From the IMG/VR virus record IMGVR_UViG_3300020041_000019, positions 1 through 6,034 of that record: 6,034 nucleotides of DNA, one strand, 5' to 3'. This DNA comes from a virus. Positions within the stretch are counted from its first letter, which is position 1, and each line of letters opens with the position of its first letter. The notes beneath the pieces were generated by a model, which saw only the letters and a list, made by a program, of their open reading frames with translations, did not search any database and was not told the origin of the DNA. A program made the translations under genes and the position numbers. Of this stretch, positions 1 through 6,034 are shown one piece after another.

Positions 1-121
1 CGAGTAATAGGATTGGAACTACGGAGATTCCTTTCGTACTGAGGATTCGGAATTTCAACGTCAAAGCGCTTATCCCAATTACGCGAAAGCTCATAGGCGG
101 AATCAAGATTATTGAGACGAA
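1..121. repeat. Terminal direct repeat, copy A (assembly overlap of a circular genome)
   Basis: Bases 1-121 (cgagtaataggattggaactacgg...attgagacgaa) match 5914-6034 with a constant offset of 5913. The repeat reaches both window edges. It lies inside an open reading frame, not in noncoding DNA. Confidence 0.93.
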
Positions 122-989
122 GGGATTCAATCACCTCGCGAGCCTGCTCACCTAAAACCTGATTGAGTGCACCCTGAGTATTCATCATAAAAGCCTGAGC
201 AGACATAAGTACACCTAAATTATCATTCTCGATGCCTAAACGCTTGACTGTTGCAGCAACGGCAGCAGACTGATTCTTCTTTTCATCAATGACGCTCAAG
301 AGCGTACTATCGGAGATAAATCGATTATTCTTCTCTATATCCTCCTGAACCTGAAGAACATCACGAGCGGCTAGATTATGCTTAGTAATAGCTTCATCAA
401 GAGCTACTCGAGCTTGAGCCATAGCAGTATAAAGCTGGCTGCCAACATTCTGGTCATCAATAGAACGAGCTTCAGCCTCATCACGAGCAGCGGCAGCCCG
501 ATTCCGCTCAATAGTAGAGTTAACACCCATAGCTTCAAGGGCAGTTCCGGCAGCAGCAGAACCGACACCGGGAGACAGCTGGCTAGAGAAGTCGAATGAA
601 CCACCGGAGGGACCGGAAGCACCCACAGAACCGGCAGAACCACCAGACATAGTAGCATTAACGCCAACGCCACTAGACCCGAGAACCGCGGCAGGCGTAA
701 TACCGGCTTTTAGATAGCGATCGAAGACCTTCGAAGGATCGTTATAAGCGTTTTCGTAATCAAATTGCTTCTGCCAATTGGCGTAGTTGATCTCACCTTG
801 CTTCTGCATCTGCTCTAAAGCGTACTGCTGCTGAAGTTTCATCTGCTTCTGCTGGTACTTCCATTGCCTTTTGAGAGAAGGCTTGAAGAGGCCCGAAGCT
901 ACCTGACCACCGGCAGAAAGGCCAGCAGCGCCAATAACAGCACCGGTAGAAATAGGTTCAACGTAGCTTTTGAAATCAATAAGTTGCAT
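1..989 (-). CDS. VP2: DNA pilot / minor capsid protein VP2, N-terminal 329 codons; the ORF runs off the window start and continues at 5913 on the circle
   Basis: ATG at 989-987 is the first start after an in-frame TAG at 1031-1029. My manual translation is open all the way to base 1: MQLIDFKSYVEPISTGAVIGAAGLSAGGQVASGLF...NYANWQKQFDYENAYNDPSKVFDRYLKAGITPAAVLG...GS-rich linker...NRAAAARDEAEARSIDDQ...coiled-coil-like Q/A/E-rich segment. The ...R.lKAG(I/L)(T/N)P... motif (nt 678-722) resembles the conserved microvirus VP2 motif. There is an N-terminal glycine-zipper hydrophobic segment. The ORF track omits it because no stop lies inside the window on this side. Confidence 0.8.
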   Translation of the reverse strand, partial: MQLIDFKSYVEPISTGAVIGAAGLSAGGQVASGLFKPSLKRQWKYQQKQMKLQQQYALEQMQKQGEINYANWQKQFDYENAYNDPSKVFDRYLKAGITPAAVLGSSGVGVNATMSGGSAGSVGASGPSGGSFDFSSQLSPGVGSAAAGTALEAMGVNSTIERNRAAAARDEAEARSIDDQNVGSQLYTAMAQARVALDEAITKHNLAARDVLQVQEDIEKNNRFISDSTLLSVIDEKKNQSAAVAATVKRLGIENDNLGVLMSAQAFMMNTQGALNQVLGEQAREVIESLRLNNLDSAYELSRNWDKRFDVEIPNPQYERNLRSSNPIT

Positions 990-990
990 A

Positions 991-1182
991 CTACGGAAGC
1001 GTAAAGTTGTTAGAACGAATAATGTAATCTACACGAACAGTATCAATATGAACACCAGTACGAGCTACCTTCGCCTGTGCAGAACACGAAGCGAGGAAAA
1101 AGGCCGAAAGAGCGGCAATAATAGACGAAACAAGTGTCCAAAAGGCCTTCGATTTGTAGAAGGGAATTTTAGTGTCAGACAT
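991..1182 (-). CDS. Small putative lipoprotein (63 aa; signal peptide plus lipobox LASC); function unknown, candidate lysis or superinfection-exclusion factor
   Basis: ATG at 1182. Peptide is MSDTKIPFYKSK-AFWTLVSSIIAALSAFF-LASC-SAQAKVARTGVHIDTVRVDYIIRSNNFTLP. It has a basic n-region, a 17-residue hydrophobic core and an L-A-S-C lipobox (nt 1084-1095, Cys33), leaving a 31-aa mature part. It is tightly packed: its TAG stop at 993-991 lies 1 nt before the VP2 ATG, and 3 nt separate the upstream ORF's stop from its own ATG. Confidence 0.6.
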   Translation of the reverse strand: MSDTKIPFYKSKAFWTLVSSIIAALSAFFLASCSAQAKVARTGVHIDTVRVDYIIRSNNFTLP

Positions 1183-1185
1183 AGC

Positions 1186-1293
1186 TTAAAACATTAAAGA
1201 ACGATAGAAAAATGCGCGGCCTCTCCTGCAGTCGTTACCAATAACCTTCAGCGATTCACGAACTCTCGCAGAAGGGGTCCGCGCACGTAGCAT
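1186..1293 (-). CDS. 35-aa arginine-rich ORF, candidate DNA-binding/packaging protein (analogue of phiX174 J / gokushovirus VP8)
   Basis: Not in the ORF track because it is too short. ATG at 1293-1291, TAA at 1188-1186. Peptide is MLRARTPSARVRESLKVIGNDCRRGRAFFYRSLMF, with 8 Arg + 1 Lys against 2 acidic residues and an aromatic/hydrophobic C-terminus. It fills the apparent intergenic gap almost exactly: 22 nt after the upstream stop and 3 nt before the next ATG. Confidence 0.45.
   Translation of the reverse strand: MLRARTPSARVRESLKVIGNDCRRGRAFFYRSLMF
1207..1285 (-). other. Long imperfect GC-rich inverted repeat with a downstream T-run on the coding strand, embedded in the 35-aa ORF; possible attenuating terminator or ssDNA stem-loop
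   Basis: tgcgcgg (1213-1219) pairs perfectly with ccgcgca (1279-1285). The stem continues with a bulge and mismatches to 1229/1268. The loop is 38 nt. The minus strand then reads GCA TTTTTC. The stem arms are Arg/Ala/Gly codons of the small ORF. Confidence 0.3.
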
Positions 1294-1315
1294 ATATCGT
1301 CTAGTGAAGGGTGTA

Positions 1316-1612
1316 CTATTTTTCTTCAGAGCTGGGGTTTTTCGAAGCAGACTTCGACTTATCTAACTCTGAGTCAATGAGTTCCTGACCGACCTCGAGA
1401 CCGTCAAACTTATCCATACGGGAAAACGAATTAGGGTCGAAGTCGATATCAGGGTTGAATTTCTCACCCTTATCAAAATCAGAAGGCTCAGCCGCCACGT
1501 CAGGACGACCGGGGAGGACATCGACGGAGCCAGAACCGTCGAGAACAGAAAGAATACGCTGACCACGAGAAACGTAGGCAGGAGTATCTTCGAGAAGCCA
1601 ATCAAGTGCCAT
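1316..1612 (-). CDS. Acidic 98-aa protein of unknown function; possibly a scaffolding-type (VP3-like) protein
   Basis: ATG at 1612, 12 nt after the VP1 stop. TAG at 1318-1316. It has 22 D/E against 11 K/R, and three DFD/KFD motifs (SDFDK, DIDFDP, MDKFDG). Its placement in the operon directly after the capsid gene supports it being real. Confidence 0.65.
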   Translation of the reverse strand: MALDWLLEDTPAYVSRGQRILSVLDGSGSVDVLPGRPDVAAEPSDFDKGEKFNPDIDFDPNSFSRMDKFDGLEVGQELIDSELDKSKSASKNPSSEEK

Positions 1613-3427: not shown

Positions 3428-4498
3428 TTAAATAATTAGTTGAAGTTTATAATGATCTCTCCAAAACTGAAGAATATCCTGATCTAGCCAAGTAGGGGGG
3501 TCAAAATCGGGCATCTTACGAGAGGAAGCAGAAAAACGCATTATTTGCTTTTGCTCCCACGTATATGTCTCTCTACGGGATACGGAGGAATTGAGACCGA
3601 ACCGGTCAACACACAGAGACACAATACGCTTAACCAGAGAAGACTTGCTAAAACGTGAATAAGCATCAGCAGCGGTAATCGAGCGAATAACGTCGTCTTC
3701 CGGTTTAAGGTATCTAAGGTAATATCGAGGAATCGTGTAATTATAATTGATGCGCTTCTCAAAATCAAAATAAGACCACGACGAAACACGAGCAGTAGGG
3801 CGAGGCATATAACCAAGAAAATCACCAACGCCAGCAGATACGAATTTTCGTGTATAACGGCGATGTTGGAGGAGAGTAGCCAAAGGTGTAATTTTTCCAT
3901 TTAAGGTAACGAATTTATCCGAGATTTCCTCGGGATTAAACTGAATTTGTTTAGTAACATACTTAACGCAGTAACGAGCACGCTTCTGGGTTGCTTTCAC
4001 CAACCACACGAAACCAAGGTCACTAACAGCTGATCGAATGTCATTGTACATACAATCGGTTCCAAAAAGAAAACCATGGAAGTGAAGTCGTGGAGCTGAT
4101 CCTGTCTCTGGGTGGGTGCCAAACTCCTGGAAAAACGCATGTTTAAAGGAGTGGCCGATCTTATGGCGAATACGCTCATTCCATCGTCGGATAAACTTAG
4201 AAGGATCTCGCAATGCTTCATCGTAATACTTCGGCGATATTGTTATCGTAATAAAAATAGCCTGCCGAGACTCAGCCTTACAGCGAGCAAGCTCACGCTC
4301 AAGACGAACAAACCAATCATTACGCTGACGACGCAAGCAGTCTTCACACTTTCCACAGGGAACCATTAACCACTGGCGGGCGACGTCCCAGGGACGAAGA
4401 GCTAAAGCCGACTTGGCGACATCAGAACCGTTGCGACAAGGATTTTTCTTGTCGAAATAACGGCGATTTCGTATCCATATGGGAGAAGAACAGGCCAC
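3428..4498 (-). CDS. VP4: Rolling-circle replication initiator VP4 (HUH endonuclease, phiX174 gpA superfamily), 356 aa, GTG start
   Basis: Motif I is FITITI (nt 4238-4255). The HUH motif is LHFHGFLF (HFH at nt 4076-4084). The two-Tyr catalytic motif is YCVKYVTK (nt 3950-3973), the same pattern as phiX174 gpA YVAKYVNK. There is a conserved-looking N-terminus ACSSPIWIRN and a CGKCEDC cysteine cluster. The only start that retains this N-terminus is GTG at 4498-4496. TAA at 3430-3428 lies 3 nt before the VP1 ATG. Confidence 0.92.
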   Translation of the reverse strand: MACSSPIWIRNRRYFDKKNPCRNGSDVAKSALALRPWDVARQWLMVPCGKCEDCLRRQRNDWFVRLERELARCKAESRQAIFITITISPKYYDEALRDPSKFIRRWNERIRHKIGHSFKHAFFQEFGTHPETGSAPRLHFHGFLFGTDCMYNDIRSAVSDLGFVWLVKATQKRARYCVKYVTKQIQFNPEEISDKFVTLNGKITPLATLLQHRRYTRKFVSAGVGDFLGYMPRPTARVSSWSYFDFEKRINYNYTIPRYYLRYLKPEDDVIRSITAADAYSRFSKSSLVKRIVSLCVDRFGLNSSVSRRETYTWEQKQIMRFSASSRKMPDFDPPTWLDQDILQFWRDHYKLQLII

Positions 4499-4771: not shown

Positions 4772-4787
4772 AGAGTTAAAGAACTCT
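4772..4787. repeat. Small perfect hairpin (6-bp stem, 4-nt loop) adjacent to the GC-rich hairpin
   Basis: agagtt (4772-4777), aaag loop, aactct (4782-4787). Confidence 0.35.
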
Positions 4788-4812
4788 TCCACCAAGCGGG
4801 CGGGTCACTACT

Positions 4813-5136
4813 CTAGTGCCCTTTCCCTTCTTCTTCCGACGCGCTTTCATCATCAGACAAATTAAGGTCAAACGTAAGAACGAGAGTGTTATCGAAAAAC
4901 TCGATCGCAAAATTCGGATACGAGATCAGAGATGCGATCAGATCCGAAATAGAATGATGCTCGATGTAGGGCGAATCAGAAAAGCTGGAACACTCTACAT
5001 ACTTTGAAAAAGGAGCATCCTTAAAAGTGTCAAGAGGAAGTGTCGTAAACTGACCATCTTCAAGACGGCCTACCTGAACAAGATCGACCTTAACAGCAGG
5101 GTTAATACGACGAATAACAAGATGAATCTGTGTCAT
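4813..5136 (-). CDS. Hypothetical acidic 107-aa protein with an acidic C-terminal tail (SDDESASEEEGKGH)
   Basis: ATG at 5136, 23 nt after the upstream stop. TAG at 4815-4813. It has about 18 D/E against 7 K/R. I recognised no family. Confidence 0.6.
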   Translation of the reverse strand: MTQIHLVIRRINPAVKVDLVQVGRLEDGQFTTLPLDTFKDAPFSKYVECSSFSDSPYIEHHSISDLIASLISYPNFAIEFFDNTLVLTFDLNLSDDESASEEEGKGH

Positions 5137-5528: not shown

Positions 5529-6034
5529 TCAACGCGAATGACGAGAATTATTGTACGAACTCGAATAACCACTACGATTCATCTCAGTTTTAGCATAACC
5601 AACAACATTACCTCTAGAATCATAACGAGTAGTCATAGAGGAGGCTGTGGAATTGGCGGAAGAACCACCGGCAGAAATAGTGCCAGCAGCACGTGACATT
5701 CCACCTCGTATAATACCTGCGCCAACGAGGCTAGAAGCCGCACCAATTAAAGCTTTAGAAATTTCGACATACGGATCAACCTTTGCATTACGAAGGGCAA
5801 TACGAGCCTGCTCAGGAAGAAAATCAGATGCGTTCGCTTCGTTTACAATAGTTTTGTCATAAAAATCTTTAAGAGACATCGAAACCTTAAAAGACCGGGG
5901 ACCAGGATTACCACGAGTAATAGGATTGGAACTACGGAGATTCCTTTCGTACTGAGGATTCGGAATTTCAACGTCAAAGCGCTTATCCCAATTACGCGAA
6001 AGCTCATAGGCGGAATCAAGATTATTGAGACGAA
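5529..6034 (-). CDS. VP2: VP2, C-terminal part (5914-6034 duplicates 1-121; the non-redundant part is 5529-5913)
   Basis: The frame of the 989->1 ORF (codon first bases congruent to 2 mod 3) maps through offset 5913 onto the frame of the listed ORF 5529..5879. I saw no stop in 5880-5913. Stop is TGA at 5531-5529. Joined length is 989+385 = 1374 nt, or 457 aa. A second glycine-zipper segment (KALIGAASSLVGAGIIRGG) occurs near the C-terminus. Confidence 0.75.
   Translation of the reverse strand, partial: RLNNLDSAYELSRNWDKRFDVEIPNPQYERNLRSSNPITRGNPGPRSFKVSMSLKDFYDKTIVNEANASDFLPEQARIALRNAKVDPYVEISKALIGAASSLVGAGIIRGGMSRAAGTISAGGSSANSTASSMTTRYDSRGNVVGYAKTEMNRSGYSSSYNNSRHSR
5914..6034. repeat. Terminal direct repeat, copy B (assembly overlap of a circular genome)
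   Basis: Exact copy of 1-121 by block-by-block comparison of 5941-6034 with 28-121 and 5914-5940 with 1-27. This implies a unit length of 5,913 nt. Confidence 0.93.

What the first reader, a model, noticed from the sequence alone, without database searches (positions are those of the whole stretch)
991..1182. Microvirus-encoded 63-aa lipoprotein immediately upstream of VP2: candidate lysis or receptor-blocking factor
The ORF has a textbook signal peptidase II signal: Lys-containing n-region, a 17-residue hydrophobic core and an LASC lipobox. The mature lipopeptide would be only 31 aa. Small phage lipoproteins are known as o-spanins (Rz1 type) and as receptor-masking superinfection-exclusion factors (T5 Llp, Cor type). 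phiX174 lyses through a small N-terminally membrane-anchored protein (E). To my knowledge no lysis function is established for Bacteroidetes-associated microviruses. This ORF sits in the virion-gene operon, 3 nt after the preceding stop and with its own stop 1 nt before the VP2 ATG. No acidic residues follow the Cys (CSAQAKV), which argues against the Bacteroidetes surface-export signal and for a periplasm-facing location.
Basis: partly seen in the sequence, partly recalled or inferred. Interest (0 to 1): 0.7.

Follow-up and report, generated by a model that had tools for sequence, protein, structure and literature searches.

The report
Conserved small lipoprotein gene in gut microviruses
A tiny gut bacteriophage carries a real, unusually well conserved gene for a 63-residue lipoprotein precursor that probably acts on the host cell envelope, either to burst the cell or to block further infection, and no such protein has been described or curated for this virus family.

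Summary
Window 1182-991 (minus strand) encodes a 63-aa ORF with a basic n-region, a hydrophobic core and an LASC lipobox, and its stop lies 1 nt before the VP2 (pilot) ATG. The window is a circular 5,913-nt microvirus genome.

The lipobox motif alone is not rare by chance. Comparison shows the gene is real. Its dN/dS of 0.07 is the lowest of five genes tested. It has the same length in 81 relatives. Every one of the 30 listed GenBank relatives carries it or a variant with a different mature domain ("type 2").

Across the wider family (578 clusters) the lipobox Cys is the only invariant residue in the alignment of 18 diverse members, while hydrophobic cores vary. Acidic residues after the Cys are almost absent, so it is a periplasm-facing lipoprotein.

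The gene moves between microvirus lineages whose capsids are about 25% identical, including Alistipes prophages. No curated family, solved structure or paper matches it.

Function cannot be settled in silico:
- Colicin-lysis-protein-like release factor: about 0.4.
- Llp/Cor/Rtp45-like superinfection exclusion: about 0.3.

- The "preceding ORF" is a structured non-coding element.
- A second conserved membrane protein, overprinted in Rep, is a rival lysis candidate.

The parts
991..1182 (-). Prolipoprotein gene: 63 codons plus TAG.
   Evidence: ORF. It is 192 nt without indels in 81 relatives. dN/dS is 0.07 with pS 0.63, and third-position entropy is 1.12 against 0.28 and 0.15 for positions 1 and 2. 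It has the lowest dN/dS of five genes in the same 30 genomes.
1087..1182 (-). Signal peptide, codons 1-32: basic n-region, then a hydrophobic helix.
   Evidence: AF2 predicts a helix at residues 12-32 with pLDDT about 90. K12, F14, W15 and F29 are invariant in 22 diverse members. dN/dS for codons 12-33 is 0.05. Distant family members have unrelated cores.
1084..1095 (-). Lipobox L30-A31-S32-C33.
   Evidence: The Cys is the only invariant column across the wide family alignment A3. In the 25 commonest lipobox variants, which cover nearly all of 265 unique members, position -1 is S or G; A also occurs at -1 in alignment A1. LASC, LSSC and LTSC are the commonest variants, and 9 members have E at -2.
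994..1086 (-). Mature 31-aa lipopeptide, CSAQAKVARTGVHIDTVRVDYIIRSNNFTLP. It has no acidic residue in positions +2 to +14.
   Evidence: G43, H45 and D47 are invariant in the type-1 subfamily. AF2 predicts a beta-hairpin at 36-42 and 50-56, at low confidence (pLDDT 53-58). D/E occurs within +2..+6 in only 6 of 265 members.
1183..1315 (-). Non-coding structured intergenic element. It has an outer stem GUGCGCGG/CCGCGCA followed by UUUUUC, an inner covarying hairpin, and a conserved 5' box. It contains the spurious 35-codon ORF at 1293-1186.
   Evidence: The fold has MFE -38.9 kcal/mol, z = -2.07. Relatives show frame-shifting indels and in-frame stops. Nine of 12 alifold pairs carry compensatory double changes. 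There is no Rfam match.
1..989 (-). 5' part of VP2 / DNA pilot gene. It continues across the circular junction to 5529, for 457 aa in all. Its ATG lies 1 nt after the lipoprotein stop.
   Evidence: PHROG phrog_8689, pilot protein, E = 5e-11.
1316..1612 (-). Acidic 98-aa protein downstream of the capsid gene, a probable scaffold-type protein. It is the last gene before the structured element.
   Evidence: ORF. Conserved in relatives at a median of 87% identity, dN/dS 0.11. No family hit.
3541..3900 (-). Overprinted 119-aa membrane protein inside Rep (+1 frame). It has three hydrophobic windows and a basic C-end. It is a rival or partner candidate for lysis.
   Evidence: The frame is open at 116 codons or more in 100 of 100 loci, median 119. 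It is conserved in 104 loci down to 36% identity. Rep synonymous diversity falls from 0.6-0.84 to 0.27-0.36 exactly over 3880-3521. Hydrophobic windows are seen in relatives.
4776..4850 (-). 24-aa basic peptide gene, MKARRKKKGKGTRVVTRPLGGRVL, overlapping the 3' end of the 107-aa gene. In other lineages the same motif ends the long form of the lipoprotein ORF.
   Evidence: Its ATG and sequence are conserved in most type-A loci, while the upstream frame varies in length. Long forms are described.
5914..6034 (.). Terminal direct repeat of bases 1-121, an assembly overlap of a circular genome. The unique length is 5,913 nt.
   Evidence: Exact 121-nt repeat.

Best explanation
The ORF is a genuine phage gene for a small exported lipoprotein.

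Shown:
- It is protein-coding and the most constrained of the five genes tested in the genome.
- It belongs to a large, uncurated family confined to microviruses and microvirus prophages.
- The lipobox cysteine is the family's only invariant residue in the alignment of diverse members.
- The mature part is a peptide of about 31 residues with no Bacteroidota surface-export signal.

Inferred processing: the precursor enters the inner membrane through Sec. Lgt adds diacylglycerol to Cys33. Signal peptidase II cuts after Ser32. A lipidated beta-hairpin peptide stays on the periplasmic side, probably at the inner leaflet of the outer membrane.

Most likely function (inference, about 0.4): it is the phage's host-release factor, working like colicin lysis / bacteriocin release lipoproteins. 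It would be made with VP2 from read-through late transcripts. The lipopeptide, and possibly its unusually conserved signal peptide left in the inner membrane, would build up and damage or block an essential envelope process until the cell opens. It would act alone or together with the membrane protein overprinted in Rep.
For: Real gene under strong constraint:
- dN/dS 0.07 at saturating synonymous divergence, with no indels in 81 genomes.
- Lower dN/dS than MCP (0.127), Rep (0.122), p98 (0.109) and VP2 (0.285) in the same 30 genomes.

Lipoprotein:
- The Cys is the only invariant column when members with unrelated hydrophobic cores are aligned.
- Lipobox statistics over 265 members.
- Predicted helix followed by a hairpin.
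- No acidic export signal. The criterion is the one described in bioRxiv 10.1101/2023.03.17.533168.

Near-universal, as expected for a core function:
- All 30 listed DNA relatives carry type 1 or type 2 at the same place before VP2.

Need for such a function:
- No endolysin or peptidase domain was found in any window ORF.
- In the literature read, phiX174 E is the only elucidated microvirus lysis mechanism (PMC3394797).

Analogy with colicin lysis proteins:
- They are small lipoproteins that cause quasi-lysis and activate outer-membrane phospholipase A (PMC9517006).
- The cloacin DF13 release protein has a stable, functional signal peptide (van der Wal 1994 and 1995, cited in PMC5727409).
- Here the signal-peptide codons have dN/dS 0.05. 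The same signal peptide is kept on two different mature domains.

The gene is uncoupled from capsid evolution. It is 72-80% identical where the MCP is 22-29% identical. This points to a host target rather than a virion partner.
Against: - No sequence similarity to colicin lysis proteins, or to any curated family or solved structure.
- Known single-gene lysis proteins usually evolve fast, whereas this is the slowest-evolving of the five genes tested.
- A second conserved membrane protein, overprinted in Rep, could be the lysis protein instead.
- Quasi-lysis of the colicin type has not been shown to release 25-30-nm particles through peptidoglycan (own knowledge).
- The gene is kept intact in Alistipes prophages. 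A toxic gene would need tight silencing there.
- Nine of 265 members have Glu at lipobox position -2, which is unusual for a lipobox.
- No dedicated lipoprotein predictor could be run.
- No host is known for the window's own clade.
Confidence: 0.4

Rival explanations
1. Superinfection-exclusion / receptor-masking lipoprotein. The periplasmic lipopeptide binds the periplasmic face of the outer-membrane protein used as receptor, perhaps by beta-strand augmentation, and changes its surface loops. Further virions can then no longer adsorb to infected cells, lysogens or debris. T5 Llp does this on FhuA, and Rtp45 does it on LptDE.
For: - This is an established kind of protein: small periplasmic lipoproteins of lytic and temperate phages (PMC9586334; PMC12685063). 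Rtp45 (about 6 kDa) forms a beta-sheet with LptD.
- The predicted hairpin is suited to strand pairing.
- In the window's clade the gene abuts VP2. Capsid and pilot proteins determine host range in a Bacteroides microvirus (PMC13064476, abstract).
- The gene is present in Alistipes prophages, in some as the first prophage gene next to the junction.
- Two alternative mature domains on one signal peptide look like a specificity cassette.
- Mobility between unrelated microviruses fits an accessory, host-directed gene.
Against: - The mature part (31 aa) is half the size of Llp, Cor or Rtp45 and has no disulphide.
- There is no sequence match to any PDB chain.
- It is present in all examined members of the clade and is the most constrained of the five genes tested. 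That is unusual for a dispensable exclusion factor.
- It is uncoupled from MCP divergence. L098 has 94% MCP identity but 67% lipoprotein identity. L003 has 29% MCP identity but 74% lipoprotein identity.
- In other lineages it is not adjacent to VP2 or MCP.
- The receptor is unknown.
Confidence: 0.3
2. Accessory envelope-disruption factor. The 119-aa membrane protein overprinted in Rep would be the primary lysis effector (holin-like, or an inhibitor of cell-wall synthesis). The lipoprotein would only help to breach the outer membrane at the end, in the role that spanins or disruptins play for tailed phages.
For: - The overprinted gene is real: the frame is open in 100 of 100 loci, Rep synonymous diversity dips exactly over it, and it is conserved to 36% identity with three hydrophobic windows and a basic C-end.
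- Both genes co-occur in type-1 and type-2 genomes.
- Long forms of the lipoprotein in other lineages carry a C-terminal hydrophobic patch plus a basic tail, a topology reminiscent of a unimolecular spanin.
Against: - There is no endolysin in the genome.
- Spanins need peptidoglycan to be removed first (own knowledge).
- The short form has no inner-membrane partner or second anchor.
- The mature part is not proline-rich like Rz1.
- phiX174 K, also overprinted on the replication gene, is a membrane protein that is not the lysis protein (own knowledge). The Rep-embedded gene may therefore have nothing to do with lysis.
Confidence: 0.12
3. Not processed as a lipoprotein. The N-terminal helix would stay as a membrane anchor and would itself be the active part, binding a membrane enzyme of cell-wall synthesis as the transmembrane domain of phiX174 E binds MraY. 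The Cys would be conserved for another reason.
For: - The hydrophobic segment is as constrained as the rest (dN/dS 0.05), with invariant K12, F14, W15 and F29 in the main subfamily.
- It is kept while the C-terminal part is exchanged.
- Nine members have Glu at -2 of the lipobox.
Against: - In distant members the helix sequence is entirely different, while the small-residue-Cys junction and the mature domain are conserved. This is the pattern of a cleaved lipoprotein signal, not of an active transmembrane domain.
- There is no proline in the helix, unlike E (sequence; own knowledge of E).
Confidence: 0.08

Closest known systems
Colicin lysis proteins / bacteriocin release proteins (for example the pCloDF13 BRP and ColE-type lysis proteins; Pfam Lysis_col)
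   Same: - Very small prolipoproteins whose mature lipopeptide is about 30 residues.
- They cause release of cell contents and cell death (PMC9517006).
[quoted passage not shown] Here the signal peptide is under unusually strong purifying selection.
   Different: - No sequence similarity: no Pfam hit at E <= 1.
- Those proteins are plasmid-borne in Enterobacteriaceae and release proteins of about 60 kDa, not virions.
- The signal peptide here is longer (32 aa).
- The host is probably Bacteroidales.
- No experimental evidence of toxicity here.
Superinfection-exclusion lipoproteins Llp (T5), Cor (T1, phi80) and Rtp45 (Rtp)
   Same: - Small phage-encoded lipoproteins that stay periplasmic at the outer membrane and act on an outer-membrane protein from inside (PMC9586334, PMC12685063).
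- No surface-export signal here either.
- Adjacent to an entry-protein gene in the window.
   Different: - The mature part is about half their size.
- No disulphide and no sequence match.
- Universal and highly constrained in its clade.
- Its genome position is not tied to capsid or pilot genes in other lineages.
phiX174 protein E (single-gene lysis, MraY inhibitor)
   Same: - A small membrane-targeted protein of a microvirus with an N-terminal hydrophobic helix.
- The genome lacks an endolysin.
   Different: - E is not a lipoprotein, is overprinted in gene D and has an essential Pro in its helix (own knowledge).
- This gene is free-standing in the window, has a lipobox and has no Pro in the helix.
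- The family pattern indicates that the helix is cleaved off.
o-spanin Rz1 and unimolecular spanin gp11 of T1
   Same: - Small phage outer-membrane lipoproteins acting at the last step of lysis.
- Long forms in other lineages have a C-terminal hydrophobic patch plus a basic tail, as a u-spanin would.
   Different: - No i-spanin partner and no endolysin.
- The mature part is not Pro-rich.
- The short form has no second anchor.
- No family hit.

Membership tests
Bacterial lipoprotein (signal peptidase II substrate; PROSITE PS51257 type) | Basic n-region, uncharged hydrophobic core, and lipobox [LVI..][ASTV..][GAS]C with the Cys between residues 15 and 35. | tested here: met
   K5, K10 and K12; core A13-L30; LASC with C33. 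The sequence matches the rule as coded. The rule alone gives 0.57 chance matches per genome.
Bacterial lipoprotein (signal peptidase II substrate; PROSITE PS51257 type) | The Cys and the small residue before it are conserved in homologues while the hydrophobic core is free to vary. | tested here: met
   The Cys is the only invariant column in A3. Position -1 is S or G in the commonest lipobox variants of 265 unique members (A also occurs in alignment A1), and cores are unrelated in L125-L130. Caveat: 9 members have E at -2.
Bacterial lipoprotein (signal peptidase II substrate; PROSITE PS51257 type) | Lipid modification and globomycin-sensitive cleavage in vivo; a call by a dedicated predictor (SignalP 6 or LipoP). 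| not testable with these tools
   No such predictor or experiment was available.
Bacteroidota surface-exposed lipoproteins | Lipoprotein export signal: acidic residues within the first few positions after the Cys (for example CSDDD). | tested here: not met
   The window has CSAQAKV. D/E occurs in +2..+6 in only 6 of 265 family members. The criterion is from bioRxiv 10.1101/2023.03.17.533168.
Colicin lysis / bacteriocin release proteins (Pfam Lysis_col) | Sequence membership in the family profile. | tested here: not met
   No Pfam family at E <= 0.1 or 1 for the window protein or for five relatives.
Colicin lysis / bacteriocin release proteins (Pfam Lysis_col) | Small prolipoprotein whose mature lipopeptide is about 27-35 aa. 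| tested here: met
   The mature part is 31 aa (type 1) or 35 aa (type 2). The size range of the known family is from my own knowledge.
Colicin lysis / bacteriocin release proteins (Pfam Lysis_col) | Causes quasi-lysis, activates outer-membrane phospholipase A, and has a stable signal peptide. | not testable with these tools
   Only an indirect hint is available: the signal-peptide codons have dN/dS 0.05.
Superinfection-exclusion lipoproteins (Llp / Cor / Rtp45) | Sequence or profile similarity to a known member. | tested here: not met
   A profile of 32 members searched against all PDB chain sequences gave only chance-level hits with E >= 0.49. The PDB holds a FhuA-Llp structure (PMC9586334). 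There was no hit in Pfam, PHROGs or PADLOC.
Superinfection-exclusion lipoproteins (Llp / Cor / Rtp45) | Gene next to the receptor-binding or entry-protein gene. | tested here: inconclusive
   It lies 1-4 nt upstream of VP2 in the window's clade. In other lineages it lies next to Rep or among small genes.
Superinfection-exclusion lipoproteins (Llp / Cor / Rtp45) | Blocks adsorption or entry of the same phage and binds the receptor. | not testable with these tools
   The host and the receptor are unknown.
o-spanin (Rz1 type) | Paired with an i-spanin gene (embedded, overlapping or adjacent) and an endolysin; Pro-rich mature part. | tested here: not met
   No endolysin or spanin family in any window ORF. 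The mature part has a single Pro, at its C-terminus.
phiX174 E-type lysis protein | Unprocessed N-terminal transmembrane domain as the active part; gene overprinted in another gene. | tested here: not met
   The gene is free-standing in the window. The helix sequence is not conserved across the wide family, whereas the cleavage junction is.
Microviridae genome (context) | Circular genome of about 4.5-6.5 kb with an F-type capsid protein, a rolling-circle Rep and a pilot protein. | tested here: met
   5,913 nt with a 121-nt overlap. Pfam Phage_F and REP_ORF2-G2P; PHROG pilot protein. Sixty GenBank microvirus relatives.

The most novel reading that the evidence does not exclude
This family would be the first lipoprotein-type single-gene lysis system. 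A microvirus of Bacteroidales would kill and open its host with a 31-residue lipidated beta-hairpin, plus its conserved signal peptide. These would jam or hijack an essential, conserved envelope machine such as lipoprotein maturation or sorting, outer-membrane protein or LPS insertion, or a cell-wall synthesis step. That would explain why it is the most constrained of the five genes tested and why it is traded between unrelated microviruses. It would point to a new 'protein antibiotic' target in gut Bacteroidota.
Probability: 0.3. Interest if true: 0.85.

Novelty: new variant of a known kind. Interest (0 to 1): 0.62.

Why it matters
- How microviruses other than phiX174 leave their hosts is unknown, although they are among the commonest phages of the animal gut.
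- This gene is a concrete, testable candidate. It is tiny, present in all relatives examined, under stronger constraint than the capsid, confined to microviruses, and predicted to act in the periplasm.
- If it lyses cells, its target would be a conserved weak point of the Bacteroidales envelope.
- If it masks a receptor, it would lead to the unknown receptor of these phages.
- Either way it defines a protein family of several hundred clusters that no curated library covers. Automated pipelines currently annotate it wrongly, as 100-aa fusions or as 'chitin synthase regulator', or not at all.

Tried and rejected
1. Chance ORF: rejected. The codon-position pattern and dN/dS show coding. The shifted-frame controls give dN/dS of about 2.7.
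2. The motif as evidence by itself: rejected. It gives 0.57 chance matches per simulated genome.
3. The 100-aa gene models, and the 35-codon upstream ORF as a gene: rejected, because of indels that shift the frame, in-frame stops and covarying stems.
4. Curated families: no significant hit in Pfam, PHROGs, NCBIfam or PADLOC for type 1, type 2 or distant members. The best were phrog_14165 at E = 0.022 and PDC-M02A at E = 0.011, both below significance.
5. PDB by profile: only chance-level hits.
6. Rfam on the window, L018 and L007: nothing.
7. The isolated Bacteroides fragilis microvirus phiHBP1 as a close model: rejected. Its MCP is 22% identical and it has no homologue.
8. Host of the window's own clade:
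   - The genome scan found only an Alistipes prophage of a distant lineage.
   - The metagenome scan with p98 returned only contigs of 6.5 kb or less.
   - The 13-kb contig of P0052 is a two-copy concatemer.
9. Cellular homologues of the gene: none seen. All longer contigs checked are prophages.
10. Fold search of the AF2 model: not run. The mature part has pLDDT 53-58 and the rest is a single helix.
11. Whether the 130-codon extension of the 'long forms' is kept open by selection: a synonymous-codon shuffle gave P(open) of 0.05-0.47 per locus. This is suggestive only when lineages are combined, and it is left unexplained.
12. Literature searches for a microvirus lipoprotein, or for a lipoprotein single-gene lysis protein: nothing found.
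Full report
**What the window is.** The first and last 121 bases are identical, so the window is a circular genome of 5,913 nt. All genes lie on the minus strand. In order they are:
- VP2/pilot: 989 to 1, continuing to 5529, 457 aa. It matches PHROG 'pilot protein', E = 5e-11.
- Three small ORFs of 120, 107 and 66 aa.
- Rep: 4498-3428, Pfam REP_ORF2-G2P.
- Major capsid protein: 3424-1625, Pfam Phage_F.
- An acidic 98-aa protein: 1612-1316.
- A 133-nt spacer.
- The ORF in question: 1182-991.

Sixty GenBank microviruses from animal and human faeces share 65-77% DNA identity with the genome.

**The observation.** The ORF is there as described, on the minus strand. It has a basic n-region, an uncharged core from A13 to L30, the lipobox LASC with C33, and a 31-aa mature part with no acidic residue until D47. 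Its TAG lies one base before the VP2 ATG.

The motif by itself proves little. The same PROSITE-type rule gives 0.57 matches per simulated genome, and it also hits an out-of-frame ORF inside the capsid gene.

The 'preceding ORF' (1293-1186) is not a gene. Its evidence:
- In relatives the stretch has indels that change the frame. Roughly a third of the 87 loci have in-frame stops 1-5 codons before the conserved ATG (my count from the listing).
- It folds into a long stem, GUGCGCGG...CCGCGCA, followed by UUUUUC.
- An inner hairpin shows compensatory double changes at 9 of 12 predicted pairs.
- Gene callers that ignored this produced the many 100-aa models in the databases.

**It is a real and highly constrained gene.** Eighty-one relatives have the ORF at exactly 192 nt.
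- Third codon positions vary freely: entropy is 1.12 against 0.28 and 0.15 for positions 1 and 2.
- pS is 0.63, pN is 0.09 and dN/dS is 0.07. Shifted frames give about 2.7.
- In the same 30 genomes it is the most constrained of five genes: 0.070, against p98 0.109, Rep 0.122, MCP 0.127 and VP2 0.285.
- Median identity to the window protein is 85%, against 71% for the capsid and 65% for VP2.

**It is a lipoprotein family.**
- A single-sequence search of 1.84 billion representatives found 56 clusters.
- A profile of diverse members found 578 clusters at 90% identity. Almost all are 58-100 aa and lie on contigs of about 6 kb.
- Relatives that seemed to lack the gene turned out to carry, at the same place before VP2, a 65-aa 'type 2' version. 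It has the same signal peptide (SKKFWTLV.AIVAAL.AFF) but a different mature domain, CTTRHYVVQSASSIKSGDTTRTTITYEQVGNFKRP.
- All 30 listed DNA relatives therefore have type 1 or type 2.
- More distant microviruses (lemur, goose, flamingo, blackfly) have the type-2 mature domain behind completely different hydrophobic cores.
- When all are aligned, the only invariant column is the lipobox Cys.
- In 265 unique members the commonest lipobox variants are LASC, LSSC and LTSC, with S or G before the Cys (A also occurs in alignment A1). Acidic residues in positions +2 to +6 occur in only 6.

A variable core, a fixed small-residue-Cys junction and a conserved mature part form the pattern of a cleaved, lipid-modified signal. 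The lack of acidic residues argues against the Bacteroidota surface-export signal (criterion from the preprint read).

AlphaFold2 on 32 members gives a confident helix at 12-32 and a low-confidence beta-hairpin at 36-42 and 50-56. The invariant G43, H45 and D47 sit in the turn.

Caveats: nine members have Glu at -2, and no dedicated predictor could be run.

**Where the gene sits and who carries it.** Two arrangements exist.
- In the window's clade (about 105 loci) the order is MCP, p98, hairpin, lipoprotein, VP2.
- In a second group the gene lies just upstream of Rep.

That second group includes an integrated prophage in Alistipes montrealensis (L007) and further prophages next to the same host genes, RelA/SpoT, HIT and an HTH protein.

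The window's MCP, Rep and VP2 are only 25-27% identical to those of the Alistipes prophage, yet the lipoprotein is 72% identical. L003 and L092 show the same pattern: lipoprotein 74-80% identical, capsid 22-29%. The gene is thus exchanged between, or extraordinarily conserved across, deeply divergent microviruses. This points to a host-directed function.

The Bacteroidales host is direct for the prophage lineages only. For the window's clade no integrated copy was found.

**Comparison with known families.**
- No hit in Pfam, PHROGs, NCBIfam, PADLOC or Rfam, and none by profile in the PDB.
- Database names are 'hypothetical protein', one automatic 'MAG TPA: lipoprotein' and one spurious 'chitin synthase regulator'.
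- No paper in the searchable library describes a microvirus lipoprotein or a lipoprotein single-gene lysis protein.
- Roux et al. 2012 state that phiX174 is the only microvirus whose lysis mechanism is known, and that some gut microviruses acquired an M15 peptidase. The window has no such enzyme.

**How it most likely works.** Shown: it is an exported-lipoprotein-type precursor, it is predicted to face the periplasm, its mature part is about 31 aa, it is universal in its clade, and it evolves independently of the capsid. The rest is inference.

I favour a release (lysis) role of the colicin-lysis-protein type, at about 0.4. The reasons:
- Those proteins are the known small lipoproteins whose mature part is about 30 residues and which open the producing cell.
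- In the best-studied case the signal peptide is stable and active itself (references cited).
- That would account for the strong constraint on this signal peptide (dN/dS 0.05) and for its retention on two different mature domains.
- A phage with nine or ten genes and no endolysin must encode lysis somewhere.
- A terminator-like hairpin precedes the gene and the VP2 start follows it by one base. This suggests co-expression with VP2 from read-through late transcripts.

The main rival, at about 0.3, is superinfection exclusion as by Llp, Cor or Rtp45. These are small periplasmic lipoproteins that reshape an outer-membrane receptor from inside, Rtp45 through a short beta-sheet with LptD. Prophage carriage, cassette-like mature domains and mobility fit this reading. 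Against it count the half-size mature part, the universality, and the lack of linkage to capsid or pilot variation.

**A second membrane protein changes the picture.** Inside Rep, in the +1 frame, a 119-aa ORF (3900-3541) is open in 100 of 100 relatives at 116 codons or more, with a median of 119. It is conserved down to 36% identity. It has three hydrophobic windows and a basic C-end. Rep synonymous diversity falls from 0.6-0.84 to 0.27-0.36 exactly across it. It is therefore a genuine overprinted gene.

It could be the lysis protein (E-like in origin, holin-like in shape), a partner of the lipoprotein, or an analogue of phiX174 K. K is also overprinted on the replication gene and is not the lysis protein (own knowledge). 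This lowers my confidence that the lipoprotein acts alone.

**Unexplained.** In about 30 of the 56 clusters the lipoprotein ORF runs on for about 130 codons (180-217 aa in all). The extension is overprinted on a better conserved gene in the +2 frame. It ends in a hydrophobic patch and a conserved basic tail, RSRRGGRRGKPRPK.K.IPLGGSHL.

In the window that tail is a separate 24-aa gene with its own conserved ATG (4850-4776). By composition it resembles the small DNA-binding J-type peptides of microviruses (own knowledge).

The lengths are bimodal. A synonymous-shuffle test is only suggestive that the open frame is selected. Whether a lipoprotein of about 200 aa with a cytoplasmic basic tail is made is unknown.

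**Verdict.**
- The lipoprotein reading is well supported by comparative evidence (about 0.85).
- The function is open between lysis and exclusion.
- The family is new to curated knowledge but belongs to the known kind 'small phage or plasmid lipoproteins acting on the envelope'.

Noticed in passing
window 3541-3900 (-), inside Rep: A conserved overprinted gene for a 119-aa protein with three hydrophobic segments and a basic C-end. The frame is open in 100 of 100 relatives. Rep synonymous diversity halves exactly over it. No family hit. Type-2 genomes have it too, and the Alistipes-type lineages also have a hydrophobic +1-frame ORF in Rep.
   Followed up: partly
window 4776-4850 (-): A 24-aa very basic peptide gene, MKARRKKKGKGTRVVTRPLGGRVL, with a conserved ATG. 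It overlaps the end of the 107-aa gene. It is probably the small DNA-binding (J/VP8-like) protein and is unannotated in the GenBank relatives seen.
   Followed up: partly
L005 1512-2114; L006 541-1116; L007 about 7977-8585; L088-L091, L093, L094, L102: 'Long forms': the lipoprotein ORF continues for about 130 codons in a frame overprinted on another conserved gene (motifs F.F..V.F.YHV.SELF and HLWGKMFDC.RTD). It ends with the basic tail that is a separate gene in the window. Lengths are bimodal (60-70 versus 180-217 aa). The meaning is unknown.
   Followed up: partly
window 1183-1315 (-): A structured intergenic element with covarying stems and a U-run. Just 5' of it is a strongly conserved box, TTTACTTGACGATATATGCTAC (the window has ACTAGACG), which from memory resembles the phiX174 origin core CAACTTGATATTAATAAC. 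The element could be a terminator/attenuator, a complementary-strand origin, or the Rep nick site. No Rfam match.
   Followed up: partly
L018, L021, L029, L061, L069, L077, L083-L086 (between the hairpin and the lipoprotein ATG): About ten relatives carry a G+C-rich insert of about 90 nt (…CCATTGTGGCGAGGTGACGCATTTCGCGGTTCGGAGAACCGCCCCGAACGAAGTGAGGGTGCGGCACCGTAGCTTCCC…), duplicated in L021, with obvious self-complementarity. It may be a small mobile or structured element. No Rfam match in L018.
   Followed up: no
L007 7600-12800; L132-L134: Microvirus prophages in Alistipes-type contigs are all integrated beside the same host genes (RelA/SpoT, HIT-family, a 154-aa HTH_3 protein). This suggests a specific attachment site. 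In L134 the first called gene after the host HTH_3 gene is the lipoprotein gene; in L132 and L133 a 56-aa gene lies just before it.
   Followed up: no
window 1-121 and 5914-6034: An exact 121-nt terminal repeat, the assembly overlap of a circular genome. ORFs crossing it, such as VP2, are cut by linear ORF finders.
   Followed up: yes
database gene models P0001-P0120 and others: Most public gene calls for this gene are 87-100 aa, because the non-coding hairpin region happens to be open in frame. One record names a homologue 'chitin synthase regulator'. Both are annotation artefacts.
   Followed up: yes
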